From: Rhizodiscina lignyota
Lineage: Eukaryota
Assembly: GCA_010015805.1 (NCBI GenBank)
Contig: ML978123.1
Location: 2,852,001-2,916,000 of the forward strand
DNA length: 64,000 nucleotides
Direction of reading: 5' to 3'
In this document: positions 1 to 5,961 of the stretch, piece after piece
Numbering within the stretch: position 1 is the stretch's first letter
Layout: each line of letters opens with the position of its first letter
The notes under the pieces: generated by a model
Seen by the model: the letters and a program-made list of their open reading frames with translations, nothing else
Databases searched by the model: none
What the model was told of the DNA's origin: nothing
Translations under genes and position numbers: made by a program

Positions 1-630
1 AGTTTCACTACTCTATCAATCGGAAGGATCTTGAGCTGAGGCGTGCTCCGTACAAGGTTTCGGGTGCCAAGAAATGAATCATACTGGCTCATCGCCGAAC
101 TCATGAAGCTCATTGGGCGACAAAAGGGCAGTTGCAGAAACTCGAAAGAATTGGGGTACACCAAATGCGGGGCTTTCGAATACAGCCATAGTGATTCATT
201 TCGTGTCATCCTGAATAAAACCATAATAGTGCAGTGCGTGTAGATGAAGATAAGAAGTAGCCGTATACAATGAAGACCGAGAAATAACAATGAAAATTAC
301 CCTTCATGCCGAACATGAATCCATCTATGCATGACTTCCGAAGACTTTCACAATATGCAGAAGCTCCTGGTTGATGGAAACTGTGGCCGGTACGTCGCAC
401 TGTTCGTCGAGGATACACTCAGACGGGACGAGAACTATTTTGCCGAGATGAGGCAGACCATGCTGAACAATCATGTCTGCCACTGAACTACCATTGTCGA
501 CATCGCCTGAAATGTCTCTTGAACAAGCCTGCTTTTGGCGCAGTAAAAGGGAATTCGATCAGAAGCTAACTTGTAATATATCAAAGCGGCATGGCCGATC
601 AAACCGAAGCAGACATAAAACAAAGCAATG

Positions 631-1451
631 TCACCGATCCTCCCCATTCTTTCGCTCCAACATTTTCCTCAACATCTCCACCTCGGCCTCCCTCTTCGCA
701 AGCTCGAGCCTTAACTGATCCTTCTCTTTTGTTACGCTTCGCACCTCTTCTTCGAGTTCTTCGATACGATCGATGCGTTTCTGGCGGTACTTCTTGGCTG
801 CGATATTGTTTCGATGACGCTTCAGAGTCAAAGCATCTGATGGCTTGGAATGCTGCATAGAAGATGAACCAGTCGTACTTTGAGGGCTTGCGGGACTGGG
901 TCGCGACATAAGACCTTGTGGTGAGGCGTTTTCAAAAGAGAGTGGCTCTGGCAGGAGTGTCCCTTCTCCTTCGAAAGAGAAGGCGCCCTGAGCTACTCCA
1001 CTAGGAGTCGTAGACACATAGACGGAGTTGTCGGTATTATAGAGTTGGTTTATATCTTTAAGCTGTCAGTGCGGTGAAGTCTGGGGTGTAATTGGGTTGA
1101 AATACCATATGGCGAATCTAAGTCGAATGAAATAGGATCTCCCAGAGCGGTTTCGTACGCCCCAGACGTAGTATCGACATGAGTAAAGTCGGAGAAAGAA
1201 GTAAAGTTTAAGATGTTGCTGGAGGGTAAAGTGCAGTCCCCAAATGAAAGAGCCGAATTTTGATTCTGAATGACTGGATTGAAGCTAGACAGCTCCGCCG
1301 GTGCGAAGAAAGACAGATGAGAAGTTGTAGACGGGTAGAGACAGGTACTGCCACTACCATGCTGAAGCGCATTGGTGTGGGCAGAAGTAGGCGACAGAGG
1401 CCTGTCGGACGGTGCATCCTGCTGATGATCCTGCGGCTCCCATGTTTGCAG
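631..1451 (-). CDS. jlbA: JlbA/IDI-4-like bZIP transcription factor, 2 exons (1451-1106, 1055-631), proposed non-AUG (CUG) start
   Basis: C-terminal basic region and zipper KRHRNNIAAKKYRQKRIDRIEELEEEVRSVTKEKDQLRLELAKREAEVEMLRKML. A 50-nt intron 1105-1056 (GTATTT...CTGAC...AAG) joins an upstream stop-free frame that has no ATG. The first in-frame ATG is at 909. The bZIP call is secure; the start codon and orthology are inferred. Confidence 0.75.
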
Positions 1452-1633
1452 TGTTTGGGCGCCTCGAGTTCACGCCCGAGGCCGGACGACAAATATCAAG
1501 ATTTAGGAAGAAGTCAAACCTGTCAAGTTGGCTGAGGTTGATACCTGAGGTTTCTACGAGAGACGAATGTACCCTTTTATGGTGGACGTCTGGGGCTGTG
1601 GCTTCTCGTTGCGGTATCTTCATGCGGCTTGCG

Positions 1634-1642
1634 GTGACTCAT
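1634..1642. promoter_or_regulatory. Gcn4/Cpc1/AP-1 consensus element GTGACTCAT upstream of the bZIP gene
   Basis: Exact TGACTCA at 1635-1641, about 55 bp upstream of a TATA-like CATAAAA (1581-1575, minus strand). Confidence 0.6.
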
Positions 1643-2543
1643 TCCAGGAGGTCCCACATCTCGACACGCTTGGAGTCTAGCGCGAACGATATTTTCTTAG
1701 GTATGCCTCACGGTGCCATCGTAGGTAGGACACCCTTCAACCCTCGTCGATGTTCGCTACTACTAAGAGACGCGTTCGAACCCCACATGCAATGTGCAGG
1801 CATACTGCTGTAAAATTGATTTTCCGTAGGTACGTGTTTGGCTCTGCGTGACAACTGGCTTGAGATCGATAGCAGCACATCTAACAAGATGCTCGAAGAT
1901 GCAACATTCGAATTGTATTGATCCATATATATCTCTTTCAAATGTCGTCCTGGAACTCAAGCTATCAATCATAGTCGTGGTTTCTTTCTCAGTAAGCCGG
2001 TCTAAAGGGACCGCGATATCTCTTATCGTCTCGACTTCTTGAAGCAGACTTCGACAAAAACCCTTTAGGCACTGTGCATTTCCATTCGTCTCTTCTTTCT
2101 GCTCCAGCAAGGTATCTTGGCTAATTTGGGCAAGAGCTCAACGGAAAAATCATTGCGGGGAAATTTCGAGCATGGACATTGATGTTAATCTGGGGTCCCC
2201 GCATCCAGTCGCAGTCGTTCGTAGCGTTTCATGACGATCTTCGGCAACTCAATCTTGCAAACTTGCCGTCTATTCACAGGTTCCCAACCGCTGCATGGTT
2301 CCTCTATCCAGGCCATCAGGAGGTGATCTCCCGGCATTCTCGACTCAATGCTTGTTCTATCCTGGCTATGTGGGGTATAGCGAGGGGGCGTTCACGACGA
2401 TGGGGTTACAGTAATGAAGAGGCACTCTATAAATGCCGGCGTCGAATGGGTTGATCATTCGCATCTGACCGTCAACCTTCTGTTCCTTTCCCGTCGAGGT
2501 CATTCTACGAAACGGCGCAGCCTTCGACTACCAAACCACCAGT

Positions 2544-4406
2544 ATGGGCCTTGGTGTCTTAGACGACCACCATCTCGAACATGTTCCCGGCACAGCCCTG
2601 CTTGCTGACGTGTTTGAGGCCCAGCGGCATCAATATCATGGTAATGAAAGCACTGCAATTGTACTTCCGGGCACTCTATTCTAACGCTAGATTAGGCCAC
2701 GATACCTCGGATCTAAAGCATGGCACTGGCAGAAACAAAGATATCGTTCTTGTCCCTCAACCAAGTGAATCGCCACGGGATCCTCTAAACTGGCCAGGAT
2801 GGAAGAAAGAATTACTCCTTCTCATTGTCAGTATCGACACCGCCGTCGTCGGTGCTTGGGGGCCAATGATTAGTCCCGGTTTCGCAGAAATGGCCAAACA
2901 ATTCAACATGTCATACAACTCTTTGAACGGAGGCCTGGGCTGGGCAATATTCGCAATCGGCCTTTCCTGTTTCATCACCAACGGCCTTTCCGTCAAGTTT
3001 GGACGTCGTCCGGTGATGATTGGCGGGAATTTGCTCTTGTTCATTTCTTCCGTATGGGCTTATTTCGCAACCAGCTACAAGTCCCTATTGGCCAGCCGTA
3101 TATTTGGAGCTGTCGGGATGAGCCCGTTCGAGGTATTGACTACGGCAATTATCGGAGACATATACTTCGTTCACGAACGGGGTTTGAGACTAGCGTTCTG
3201 GGGCCTGTGTTTAAATATCGGGGTAGGCGGAGGTAGCTGCATATCTGGTTACATTATCCAGGTCGGTATAGTCGAGCTATCCTACTGATACTTCATACTA
3301 ATGGCGACCAGAATCTCGGTTGGAACTGGACCTACGGGATATGTGCGTGCTTCTATGGGGTTTTTATTATTTTGATATTGCTGTTCGTTCCAGAGACCAT
3401 CTATCATCGCGATCCTGCCTACAACATCGATCTGGGCACGAGAGACCATACAGTTGAGACATTGGAAGCAGAAAAGATTGTCGGCGAGGAACCAAAAGGT
3501 CCACAACATTTGGAGCTGACTAAATCTGGGAACACAACGCAAGCTGGGATCCTATACACTGGTGCTGACGAACAGCCGTACACGTTCTGGGAGCAGCTCC
3601 TTCCAGTCCGCGGCATCGAGTCAGACGAGAACCTGCTGTACATCATTTTCAGGCCCTTTGGAATGCTTTTGTTCCCTCAGGTGCTCTACGGCTTCATTAC
3701 ATATGGTCTCTCAACATCATGGCTGGTTGTCATGATCAGCGTCTTGGCCCAGCTCTTCACGGGTCCACCGTACAACTTCTCTGTTGCGGACGTCGGCTTG
3801 ATAAGCATCGCCGCGCTAGTTGCATCGCTCTTGGGGTTCATCGCTGGGCCTCTAAACGACTATGTCGTCAAGAAACTAGCACGATTGAATAACGGCATCT
3901 ACGAACCCGAATTTCGACTGTTGTTGAATATCCTGACCCTCATACTGGGCGTTGTTGGATTCTTCGGATTCGGAGCCTGCCTGGAACATCAAACTCCTTG
4001 GCCTGGACCCGTGGTTCTCTACGGCATCATCTATTTCTCCATGTCATTCCTCAACATTGGGTGAGTATATCTATCGCCGTTTGTCATTCATCCTCTGAAG
4101 GTGAAGCCTGGGACCATCGCTGATTGGCTAATACGAAATAGTATCTACGGCTACATTACTGAATGCCACCGTAACAAAGCGCCTGAAGCATTCGCTTCTC
4201 TCAACCTGCGCAACTTCTACTCATTCGGGATGAATTATTTTATCAGCTCTTGGATCACTAACCAAGGCCCGCTTGAAGTCTTCAGCATTATCGGGGGGCT
4301 ACACATCTTCATCTGCCTCTTGACAGTACCAATGTGGATCTTCGGCAAGAGATGCCGCAGCTTGACTGCGCGTCTTACAATCTATCGAAAGATTCAGAAT
4401 TCTTAA
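2544..4406 (+). CDS. MFS transporter, HOL1/DHA1-like, 4 exons
   Basis: Starts MGLGVLDDHHLEHVPGT; contains LVPQPSESPRDPLNWP, KFGRRPV, DIYFVHERG, PETIY, GIYEPEFRL and about 12 hydrophobic segments. Introns near 2641-2695, 3262-3311 and 4061-4141. TATAAA at about 2428. Confidence 0.9.
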
Positions 4407-4885
4407 GGGGTGGTCCCGAACTCAAGACAATCAACGATGTTGAGCTATTGGATCAGGGTCCAATATCTCTTGCTCTAGGAGAAGTGCGGTTTCCTTGCAG
4501 ATAGCGACCATATCATAAACTTGAATGAGAACAAATTAGAAATTAAGATCCTCAGATGAATAAGTGTCACCATGAACTTCAGAGGCATTACTACTTCGTG
4601 ACAACATCTTGGTGGCGAGCAAATGACTCGGTGAATCTTCGGAAGAATCGAGTGGCCAAGCCGGTCACGCCGCGCTTCACTTGTAACTCTTGCTCCCTTC
4701 TCACGAATCCCAATGATCTTTTGATATCGTCAAGAAAATATTTCGGTATACTGCTACGTACAGTATCAAAAAGTGCTCAATCGCTGGCTGGACCAACGGC
4801 GATCAACAACTTAGGAAAGACCATGTCTTAACCACAGCCGAGCTCATAACTTCTTCACCAAAACACACATACACACTCAGTCGCA

Positions 4886-5961
4886 ATGGCAGAGAACGGC
4901 GATAATTCTGAACCGATGTTCAAGGCAAACAAGCGACGAAAGATATGGAGAAAGCGACCCATTAGCGATGAGCCAGAAGATGTGGAGAGCGAGTCCACGC
5001 AAATCGACCAAGCACTTGACGCGTCTGAAAGTGGAGTTTCAGCACAACCGCCCAAAGCCGGAATGTCAATCGCCGAGATTCTGCGAAAAAGAAGGCAAGG
5101 ACAAGCGCACAAGGCAGGGATTGGCTTTTCGAACGTTAAAGCAACCAAAGCTGGCAACTCAGATGGGACCACGGAAACCGCGCGTCGAAACAGCGAGATT
5201 GCGCCTCCACTGGAGAACCTGAACAGCAGGTTTGTACTCCAGACAGGGCAACGCGTCGCGGATGAGACGGACAAGCATATGTGAGTGACAGTAACAGTCC
5301 CATATCATATTACACTGTAGCAACAGCTAACGCGTCAAGGAATGCATATGTAGAGGCCAAAATGGCTGAACTACGTGAAAGCGGACTCTCCTCTCAATCC
5401 GACAACCAAATCCGACAAGCAGTCGAAGAGACACTCTCCGCAGAGAACCTGCCTCGCGAGCGAAAGCCAACAAGTTCTGGGAAGCTCATGGAGGTCGATC
5501 TCGGCCCGGAGACAACTTTGCGCAACATTGCGCGTACCGAAGCTGCGACGAAGGGCACGGCTACTGGTGAGACGGAGGAGTATATTGGAGGTGGTAAGAG
5601 ACGAAGACGTAGGAGGAACAGCGAAGATGTCAAGCGGGACAAGCTGGTGGACGAGGTGCTGAAGCAGAGTAGGCGTAAGTGGAGACTCCCTAAGTTTTCA
5701 TTGCAAAGGTATTTTAGTGACACTCTAGTTCCAGTGGATATGTACACTCCGCCAGAGGCTATGCACGACTACGGTGACGAAGCTGCCGACGAACGTATTG
5801 CGGAAGAGTTCCGCAAGGAGTTCTTGAATGCGATCGAGGACAAGAACGTACGCAAACCACAACCAGCTGCACCAGCTCCAGGTAGAGGAGCGAAGCGTGA
5901 GGACCAGGTGAAAGGACCAAAGCTTGGAGGCAGCAGGAATGCGAGGATGAAGCAGCGATAG
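4886..5961 (+). CDS. Tls1/C9orf78 (HCA59)-like spliceosome-associated protein, 3 exons
   Basis: Motifs SRFVLQTG...DKHM|NAYVEAKM, GKLMEVDLG, RRRRNSEDVKRDKLVDEVL, ADERIAEEFRKEF and KGPKLGGSRNAR. Introns 5281-5339 and 5675-5734. Confidence 0.75.

What the first reader, a model, noticed from the sequence alone, without database searches (positions are those of the whole stretch)
631..1451. bZIP gene with no in-frame AUG in its first 164 codons: candidate CUG-initiated transcription factor
Seen: splicing a 50-nt intron (1105-1056) joins the bZIP exon to a 346-nt stop-free upstream exon with no ATG. The frame is closed by a TGA six codons upstream of a CTG at 1451, which has A at -3 (CAAACA-CTG). 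CUG initiation gives 256 aa; the first in-frame AUG (909) gives only a 92-aa, almost bare bZIP. Knowledge (from memory): the Podospora relative IDI-4 was reported to start at CUG, and Neurospora cpc-1 has non-AUG extensions. Inference: two isoforms are possible, a full activator and a short form that could act as a dominant negative. Automated annotation would truncate this gene.
Basis: partly seen in the sequence, partly recalled or inferred. Interest (0 to 1): 0.8.

Follow-up and report, generated by a model that had tools for sequence, protein, structure and literature searches.

The report
CUG-started IDI-4-type bZIP gene
This fungal gene encodes a stress-type bZIP transcription factor that most likely begins translation at a CUG codon, as already proposed for its Podospora and Neurospora relatives, and public gene models get its start wrong.

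Summary

The gene belongs to the IDI-4/ZIP-1 family. A public 266-aa model (Rhizodiscina lignyota NA57DRAFT_54130) supplies an ATG from an extra exon (1623-1573) through a 142-nt intron (1572-1431).

Five metagenomic relatives and the window share one module:
- an inverted repeat or hairpin;
- 9-12 nt later an NTG (CTG x4, TTG, GTG) with A at -3 in 6 of 6;
- an out-of-frame ATG exactly 8 nt downstream in 6 of 6, in strong context, opening a 20-29-codon ORF.

The leaders are ATG-free. In 3 of 5 relatives the first in-frame ATG lies after the basic region. The public model's intron would remove this module.

Papers already state a CUG start for IDI-4 and N. crassa ZIP-1, so this is a new member of a known kind. 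The short "dominant-negative" isoform is not supported. No RNA data could be obtained, so the transcription start site (TSS) and splicing are unverified.

The parts
1573..1580 (-). TATA-like element ATAAAAGG, 129 nt upstream of the CTG. It overlaps the donor site of the public model's first intron.
   Evidence: Similar elements lie at -142 in L005 and -161 in L002. Its function is inferred only.
1461..1482 (-). Conserved inverted repeat or hairpin in the leader: 5' arm 1482-1475, loop 1474-1469, 3' arm 1468-1461. The loop contains the in-frame stop TGA 1472-1470.
   Evidence: an 8-bp stem, -14.5 kcal/mol. The same GGCCTC...G[AG]GGCC arms lie 9-12 nt before the NTG in 5 of 5 relatives. Against shuffles, 5 of 6 sequences have at most 3.4% of shuffles reaching the observed energy; the window has 13%.
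1449..1451 (-). CTG, the proposed near-cognate start codon, with A at -3.
   Evidence: The aligned codon is NTG in 6 of 6 sequences, with A at -3 in 6 of 6. hhalign E 5.2e-05.
1354..1443 (-). Out-of-frame ATG (1443-1441; A at -3, G at +4) opening a 29-codon overlapping ORF with stop at 1356-1354.
   Evidence: An ATG lies at +8 in 6 of 6 sequences, and the ORF is 20-29 codons in all six. It has no Pfam hit.
1106..1451 (-). Coding exon 1 (346 nt, 115 codons plus 1 nt), with no in-frame ATG. Probably a disordered activation region.
1056..1105 (-). 50-nt intron: GTATTT donor, CTGAC branch motif 10 nt from the 3' end, AG acceptor.
   Evidence: The same junction is used by the public protein P0003. 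No RNA evidence.
631..1055 (-). Coding exon 2 with stop TGA 633-631. It holds the first in-frame ATG at 909-907.
661..837 (-). bZIP domain (basic region plus leucine zipper).
   Evidence: bZIP_2 at residues 73-124 and bZIP_1 at residues 77-131 of the exon-2 translation. Basic-region columns are invariant in the family alignments.
1431..1623 (-). Features of the public model that I judge wrong: ATG 1623-1621, a 17-codon exon to 1573, and a 142-nt intron 1572-1431 (GTACAT...CAG).
   Evidence: rebuilding the model from these coordinates gives P0003 exactly; the nearest YTRAY branch motif is 65 nt from the 3' end. The intron would remove the conserved hairpin, NTG and +8 ATG.

Best explanation
This is the Rhizodiscina lignyota member of the IDI-4 (Podospora) / ZIP-1 = IDI4 (Neurospora) family of bZIP transcription factors.

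The 256-codon main ORF (1451-1106 joined to 1055-634) has no usable AUG. Translation most likely starts at the near-cognate CUG 1451, which has A at -3.

The start codon sits in a conserved initiation module:
- an AUG-free, CA-rich leader;
- a 6-8-bp GC-rich hairpin ending 9-12 nt before the start codon;
- a strong-context AUG in another frame 8 nt after it, which opens a 20-29-codon overlapping ORF.

Inferred mechanism: most scanning ribosomes pass the weak CUG and start at the AUG, making a short peptide. Only a minority start at the CUG and make the bZIP. Factor output is therefore low and depends on start-codon stringency and ternary-complex supply. This fits the reported repression of N. 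crassa ZIP-1 translation by phosphorylated eIF2-alpha.

What is shown: the sequence anatomy, its conservation, and family membership. What is inferred: CUG use in this species, the TSS lying downstream of ATG 1623, and the roles of the AUG ORF and the hairpin.
For: Family membership:
- Pfam bZIP.
- The basic-region signature is invariant across relatives.
- The profile search returned 74 proteins. They include 'bzip transcription factor idi-4 [Grosmannia clavigera]' and P0044, whose 90% cluster holds RefSeq 'b-ZIP transcription factor IDI4 [Neurospora crassa]'.

Start codon:
- In all 5 metagenome loci found the bZIP ORF has no early in-frame ATG. In 3 of 5 the first one lies after the basic region.
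- The aligned codon is CTG x4, TTG x1 and GTG x1, with A at -3 in 6 of 6. No other Leu synonym occurs.
- In the window and in L001 an in-frame stop lies 6 codons upstream, so the start cannot lie further 5'.
- 10 of the 74 family proteins carry [LVM]Q.W in their first 140 residues. Three of these (P0017, P0025, P0041) begin exactly there. P0006, found, also begins there (MQRW).
- hhalign of the window's frame against the family profile (window excluded) gives E 5.2e-05 with LQTW on LQEW.

Module:
- ATG at +8 in 6 of 6, with A at -3 and G at +4. The short ORFs are 25, 27, 27, 20, 24 and 29 codons.
- No ATG in 1170 nt of upstream leader summed over the six sequences. About 11 are expected from the leaders' own composition and about 18 from locus density.
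- The hairpin is present in 6 of 6.

Against the public model:
- Its intron removes the module, has donor GTACAT, and has no YTRAY within 65 nt of the acceptor.
- Its donor overlaps a TATA-like element that recurs at -142 in L005 and -161 in L002.
- Automated models of relatives use mutually different N-terminal fixes. P0010 and P0035 start in the +8 ATG frame. P0026 and P0032, 87% identical to each other, begin with different residues. P0028 starts from an upstream exon. Most others start at internal Met. Lengths run from 115 to 665 aa.

Literature, passages only: PMC5487733 and PMC10241597.
Against: - There is no transcript evidence for this organism, so the TSS, both introns and CUG use are unverified.
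- The public 266-aa model uses canonical GT-AG borders and is in frame. I cannot see what evidence it was built on.
- If the TSS lies upstream of 1623, AUG 1623 opens an 89-codon ORF across the CUG. That ORF has a weakly positive codon score (+4.6 bits) and would largely block CUG use.
- Exon 1 has no significant similarity to anything outside the N-terminal module. The search of 1.84 billion representatives found only the gene's own protein and a repeat protein. BLASTP against P0006 and P0007 gave E 5.4 and 0.057.
- In the overlap region both reading frames look similarly conserved because the DNA is CAG/GCN-rich. I could not show which frame is under selection.
- Only six DNA sequences carry the module, and most relatives look like Sordariomycetes.
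- The hairpin core shows only one-sided changes (U-A to U.G). The window's own hairpin is no better than 13% of shuffles.
- I could not read Dementhon 2004, so I cannot confirm that its CUG is the codon aligned here.
Confidence: 0.75

Rival explanations
1. The public model is right. Transcription starts upstream of 1623, translation starts at AUG 1623, and a 142-nt intron (1572-1431) joins a 17-codon exon to the main frame, giving 266 aa. The CUG, hairpin and +8 AUG are intronic in this species.
For: The deposited protein P0003 is reproduced exactly by these coordinates. The borders are GT...AG and the join is in frame. AUG 1623 has a purine at -3.
Against: - The intron would delete a module conserved in 6 of 6 sequences.
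- The donor is GTACAT, and the nearest branch-like motif is 65 nt from the acceptor.
- The 17-residue exon has no counterpart. L004 and L005 have no ATG for 247 and 354 nt upstream.
- The donor overlaps a TATA-like element.
- Automated models of relatives use inconsistent N-terminal fixes.
Confidence: 0.1
2. The conserved strong AUG at 1443 is the true start. The ribosome or the spliceosome then moves into the bZIP frame, by +1 frameshifting or by a small intron, as the models P0010 and P0035 assume.
For: The AUG is conserved in 6 of 6 with optimal context. Two deposited models of relatives start in that frame.
Against: - The short ORF ends at variable distances (68-95 nt from the NTG), with no conserved sequence at its stop.
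- The main frame is already open from the NTG in all six sequences.
- This reading does not explain an invariant NTG with A at -3 located 8 nt upstream.
Confidence: 0.05
3. Only the 92-aa protein from AUG 909 is made, or the start is another near-cognate codon downstream of 1451. The region upstream is leader sequence.
For: AUG 909 is the first in-frame AUG. Many deposited relatives start at internal Met, including RefSeq N. crassa IDI4.
Against: - Seven out-of-frame AUGs precede AUG 909.
- The 121-codon frame is stop-free in only 0.9% of shuffles and has a positive codon score in frame 0 only.
- The N-terminal module is homologous across the family.
- 3 of 5 relatives have no AUG before the basic region.
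Confidence: 0.07

Closest known systems
IDI-4 of Podospora anserina and ZIP-1 (NCU08055, 'IDI4') of Neurospora crassa
   Same: Same bZIP family: shared basic-region signature, profile hits, and cluster membership of RefSeq N. crassa IDI4. Both are said in print to start at a CUG (passages of PMC5487733, and of PMC10241597). Proteins of the Podospora and Neurospora lineages (P0017, P0041, P0082) carry the same [VL]QEW N-terminal module.
   Different: This gene is from a Dothideomycete. It has a 50-nt intron where the five related loci have one continuous ORF. Outside the bZIP domain and the first ~30 residues it is not alignable. Biological role (incompatibility, autophagy, starvation) is untested here. 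I could not read the primary 2004 paper, so identity of 'its' CUG with this one is inferred.
Neurospora CPC1 / yeast GCN4
   Same: A fungal bZIP factor whose translation uses conserved near-cognate codons with good context to make N-terminally longer forms (PMC5487733 passages).
   Different: CPC1 has an annotated AUG main start and AUG uORFs in a leader of more than 700 nt. Here no in-frame AUG precedes the DNA-binding region in 3 of 5 relatives, and the leader is AUG-free. The basic-region signature also differs, so this is not a member of that family.
Mammalian C/EBP alpha and beta mRNAs
   Same: As described in the discussion of PMC5487733: a near-cognate start in good context, then an out-of-frame AUG in good context that makes a short ORF. 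This is the same order of elements as here.
   Different: In C/EBP, downstream in-frame AUGs reached by reinitiation give shorter isoforms (LAP, LIP). Here downstream in-frame AUGs are not conserved. The 8-nt spacing and the upstream hairpin are specific to this family. There is no homology beyond the generic bZIP fold.
Closely spaced start codons of turnip yellow mosaic virus (recalled from memory; seen in no call)
   Same: Two start codons a few nucleotides apart in different frames are said to compete, so that the downstream one lowers use of the upstream one.
   Different: That case is viral and both codons are AUG. I cite it only as a mechanistic lead.

Membership tests
IDI-4 / ZIP-1 (IDI4) bZIP family | C-terminal bZIP domain | tested here: met
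   Pfam bZIP_2 at 4e-09 (36.9 bits, cut-off 22.3) and bZIP_1 at 8.4e-07 (29.4 bits, cut-off 27.6).
IDI-4 / ZIP-1 (IDI4) bZIP family | Family-specific basic region (KR.RNN.AAK.YRQK..DRI.ELE) | tested here: met
   These columns are invariant or nearly invariant in alignments A1 (12 sequences) and A3 (11 sequences). Identity over the bZIP region is 53-75%.
IDI-4 / ZIP-1 (IDI4) bZIP family | Groups with named IDI-4 / IDI4 proteins | tested here: met
   The profile search returns P0079, named 'idi-4' (Grosmannia clavigera), and P0044, whose 90% cluster holds RefSeq N. crassa IDI4 XP_965186.2. A reciprocal best-hit test in the window's own genome was not possible because no genome is held.
IDI-4 / ZIP-1 (IDI4) bZIP family | No AUG at the head of the ORF; near-cognate (CUG) start | tested here: met
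   At sequence level only: NTG with A at -3 in 6 of 6 and hhalign E 5.2e-05. Actual initiation cannot be tested with these tools.
IDI-4 / ZIP-1 (IDI4) bZIP family | Induced in incompatibility or starvation; drives autophagy and cell-death genes | not testable with these tools
   Known only from passages of PMC3689799 and PMC1325252 about Podospora and Aspergillus.
GCN4 / CPC1 cross-pathway-control bZIP | AUG-initiated uORFs in a long leader upstream of an AUG main start | tested here: not met
   No ATG in the 169 nt before the CTG, nor in 79-354 nt before the NTG of the relatives. There is no in-frame AUG main start. The TSS is unknown, so elements further upstream cannot be excluded.
C/EBP-type start-site architecture (works-like, not membership) | Near-cognate start, then an out-of-frame AUG short ORF, then in-frame AUG isoforms | tested here: inconclusive
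   The first two elements are present in 6 of 6. The third is present in the window (ATG 909) but absent before the basic region in 3 of 5 relatives.

The most novel reading that the evidence does not exclude
Across Pezizomycotina, from Dothideomycetes to Sordariomycetes, IDI-4/ZIP-1 mRNAs carry a fixed three-part start-site switch:
- a hairpin 9-12 nt upstream;
- a near-cognate NTG that alone can make the transcription factor;
- a strong out-of-frame AUG exactly 8 nt downstream that opens a 20-29-codon decoy ORF.

Output of this stress and cell-death regulator would then be set by competition between two start codons too close to be read independently. That would make the mRNA a direct sensor of start-codon stringency and eIF2 status. 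I found no description of the AUG ORF or the hairpin in the held library. The primary 2004 paper and the supplements of the two papers I read in part were not seen.
Probability: 0.4. Interest if true: 0.7.

Novelty: new member of a known kind. Interest (0 to 1): 0.5.

Why it matters
- It extends a proposed non-AUG start from two Sordariales species to a distant class. Comparative evidence, not only the lack of an AUG, points to the start codon.
- It shows that automated models of this family are systematically wrong, and wrong in different ways. Among 74 family proteins, lengths run from 115 to 665 aa. The RefSeq N. crassa entry is truncated, and this gene has an invented N-terminal exon.
- The conserved +8 AUG and the hairpin give concrete, cheap mutational tests of how a weak start codon is tuned in a regulator whose translation is known to respond to eIF2-alpha phosphorylation.

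Tried and rejected
- RNA evidence: no RNA holder was listed for window 500-1900. The one run listed (X1) is kept as contigs. Laid on 1-5000 it gave three pieces, no joints and no differences, so it says nothing on splicing or the TSS.
- Own genome: none is held.
- Exon-1 peptide against 1.84 billion representatives: only the gene's own protein and a 668-aa tandem-repeat protein (P0005), taken as a low-complexity match.
- BLASTP of exon 1 against P0006 (E 5.4) and P0007 (E 0.057) was not significant.
- RNAalifold on MAFFT alignments of the leader predicted 0 pairs, because the arms were misaligned around loops of different length. I relied on single-sequence folds instead.
- A hairpin downstream of the start codon, which is known to help near-cognate starts: no consistent structure, z from -1.2 to +0.5.
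- Programmed frameshift from the AUG ORF: no conserved site at its stops.
- P0026 against P0032, to find where coding conservation begins: they are too close (87% identical) and the similarity runs into the leader, so the test was uninformative.
- The bacterial promoter and terminator scan does not apply to a eukaryote.
- Earlier findings of this scan: nothing by sequence or by words.
- Dementhon and Saupe 2005 is not held by DOI or PMC id. Dementhon 2004 is not held; I know it only through citations.
- By-eye counting of substitutions by codon position in the overlap region (no call) showed no clear periodicity, so I make no claim about which frame is selected there.

Full report
**1. Observation**

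- The bZIP exon is 1055-634, with stop TGA 633-631.
- The 50-nt intron 1105-1056 has a GTATTT donor, a CTGAC motif 10 nt from its 3' end, and an AG acceptor.
- The upstream frame is open from 1469 to 1106 and holds no ATG.
- TGA 1472-1470 lies six codons before CTG 1451-1449, which has A at -3.
- From the CTG the ORF is 256 codons. The first in-frame ATG is codon 165 (909-907).
- Pfam finds bZIP_2 and bZIP_1 in exon 2 and nothing in exon 1.

The open frame is unlikely by chance. It was stop-free in 176 of 20000 shuffles. Only frame 0 has a positive codon-usage score: +9.7 bits against -26.0 and -13.1. No Met in 164 codons has P = 0.036 at the window's Met frequency.

It opens a 29-codon ORF ending at 1354. 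Six more out-of-frame ATGs precede ATG 909.

**2.

The exon-2 peptide matches, at 100% identity, a 266-aa protein of Rhizodiscina lignyota, NA57DRAFT_54130 (P0003). This species is a Dothideomycete of the order Aulographales.

So an annotated "additional upstream exon supplying an AUG" does exist.

No RNA evidence could be had. That search is recorded under Tried and rejected and carries no weight either way.

**3. Relatives**

Exon 1 alone finds nothing outside its own protein and a repeat protein in 1.84 billion representatives. The bZIP region does find a family.
- 12 proteins were found with P0003.
- 74 proteins were found with a profile.
- One is named idi-4 (Grosmannia clavigera).
- P0044 shares a 90% cluster with RefSeq "b-ZIP transcription factor IDI4 [Neurospora crassa]", XP_965186.2, 219 aa.

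Passages of PMC10241597 equate N. crassa zip-1 (NCU08055) with Podospora idi-4. They speak of its "poor CUG start codon" and report more ribosome coverage without the eIF2-alpha kinase CPC-3. [quoted passage not shown] PMC1325252 (passages) calls IDI-4 an orthologue of Aspergillus JlbA.

**4. The comparative test**

One scan of metagenome contigs gave five loci (L001-L005), with bZIP identity of 53-66%.
- In all five, a single ORF runs into the bZIP with no early in-frame ATG.
- In L001, L002 and L004 the first in-frame ATG lies after the basic region, so an AUG start cannot give a DNA-binding protein.

Aligned on a shared [LV]Q[ET]W motif, the six sequences (five loci plus the window) show the following.
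- The first codon is CTG in four sequences, including the window. It is TTG in L002 and GTG in L001. The other Leu synonyms never occur.
- A stands at -3 in 6 of 6.
- The third base of the codon before TGG is A in 6 of 6 (GAA five times, ACA in the window). This always creates an ATG at +8 with A at -3 and G at +4.
- That ATG opens an ORF of 25, 27, 27, 20, 24 and 29 codons.
- No ATG occurs in the 169, 126, 195, 79, 247 and 354 nt upstream. Three of these stretches are limited by the contig edge. They sum to 1170 nt, where about 11 ATGs are expected from the leaders' own composition.
- In-frame stops lie 6, 6, 44, 16, 71 and 13 codons upstream of the NTG. In the window and in L001, therefore, the start cannot lie further 5'.

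hhalign of the window's stop-to-stop exon-1 frame against a 17-sequence family profile that excludes the window aligns residues 2-33 to the profile's N-terminal module. LQTW falls on LQEW (E 5.2e-05, probability 67%).

Among the 74 family proteins, 10 hold the motif in their first 140 residues. P0017 (VQEW), P0025 (MQEW) and P0041 (LQEW) begin with it. P0006, found, begins MQRW.
- P0017 clusters at 90% with a Podospora aff. communis protein that starts at an internal Met.
- P0041 and P0082 look like the N-terminally longer form of a Neurospora-type IDI4.

**5. Upstream element**

All six sequences have GGCCTC and G[AG]GGCC (GAGGCG in the window) as an inverted repeat. It ends 9-12 nt before the NTG, and the loops are 4-9 nt long.
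- Each folds as a 6-8-bp hairpin of -11.6 to -16.2 kcal/mol.
- In a 40-nt window, 5 of 6 beat all but at most 3.4% of 500 shuffles. The window's own reaches only 13%.
- The spacing to the NTG is not always a multiple of three. In the window and in L001 an in-frame stop sits in the loop, so the conservation is at nucleotide level and is not a peptide.
- Core changes are one-sided only (U-A to U.G), and the alignment-based folding failed. RNA structure is therefore likely but not shown.

**6. Why I reject the public first intron**
- It would remove the hairpin, the NTG and the +8 ATG.
- Its donor is GTACAT, and the nearest YTRAY is 65 nt from the acceptor. In the 50-nt intron that distance is 10 nt.
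- Its donor overlaps a TATA-like ATAAAAGG at -129. ATAAAACC stands at -142 in L005 and TATATATC at -161 in L002. This suggests that the TSS lies downstream of ATG 1623.
- L004 and L005 have no ATG where an equivalent exon would be.
- Automated models of relatives solve the missing AUG in mutually inconsistent ways. P0010 and P0035 start in the +8 ATG frame. P0003 and P0028 use upstream exons. P0026 and P0032 have long N-terminal extensions that begin differently although the two proteins are 87% identical. Most others, including RefSeq N. crassa IDI4, start at an internal Met.

Caveats:
- I cannot see the evidence behind the public model.
- If the TSS is upstream of 1623, AUG 1623 opens an 89-codon ORF over the CUG, with a weakly positive codon score (+4.6 bits).

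**7. Mechanism (inferred)**

A scanning complex meets no AUG in the leader and passes the hairpin. It reaches the weak CUG and, 8 nt later, a strong AUG in another frame. Most complexes should start at the AUG, make a 20-29-residue peptide and terminate 68-95 nt into the main ORF. A minority start at the CUG and make the factor.

The order of elements matches what PMC5487733 describes for C/EBP mRNAs.

A frameshift from the AUG ORF is unlikely, because there is no conserved site at its stops. No conserved downstream hairpin was found.

The role of the upstream hairpin is open. One idea, for which I have no evidence, is that it refolds behind the scanning complex and limits backward movement.

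**8. Novelty**

The CUG start of this family is in print, so the gene is a new member of a known kind.

I did not find the following in the held library:
- the conserved +8 AUG ORF;
- the hairpin;
- the AUG-free leader;
- the extension of the module to Dothideomycetes;
- the pattern of mis-annotation.

The 2004 primary paper, the 2005 SELEX paper and the supplements of the two papers read in part were not seen and may bear on this.

**9. Verdict**

- Interest is 0.5.

Noticed in passing
window 1354-1623 (minus strand): ATG 1623-1621 opens an 89-codon ORF, read unspliced, in the same frame as the +8 ATG and ending at the same stop (1356-1354). Its codon score over 1620-1452 is weakly positive (+4.6 bits). 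L004 and L005 have no counterpart.
   Followed up: partly
window 2563-3285 (plus strand): An ORF with Pfam MFS_1 (3.2e-16) and Sugar_tr (7.9e-06) matches. It is a transporter gene transcribed divergently from the bZIP gene, about 1 kb from its likely promoter.
   Followed up: no
P0084 (RefSeq N. crassa IDI4 XP_965186.2) against P0041 and P0082: The RefSeq entry (219 aa) starts at an internal MHLSLDHH. Sequences of the same lineage carry the LQEW module roughly 100-130 codons further upstream. The database entry is therefore truncated relative to the CUG start spoken of in papers.
   Followed up: partly
P0071 (Gnomoniopsis smithogilvyi) and P0038: There are two exceptions to the module at protein level. 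P0071 has an in-frame Met six codons before LQEW, so an AUG may have arisen there. P0038 begins VNDW, where an Asp codon cannot end in A, so the +8 ATG should be absent.
   Followed up: no
L001-L005 and window, 40-130 nt upstream of the NTG: The leaders are C- and A-rich (C is 30-48%), with CA-rich runs. PMC10241597 reports a CA-rich motif in the zip-1 leader that is needed for full rhythmic translation. I did not compare the motifs, because Table S7 was not seen.
   Followed up: no
window 971-1000: Two contigs of run X1 meet here with a 30-nt overlap, and one carries a 23-nt loose end that looks like a sequencing adaptor. This is an assembly detail of that run and not a feature of the gene.
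   Followed up: no
P0005: A 668-aa protein made of tandem repeats matched exon-1 residues 60-85 in 11 stretches (E 1.4e-08). I took it as a low-complexity or repeat match, not a relative.
   Followed up: no
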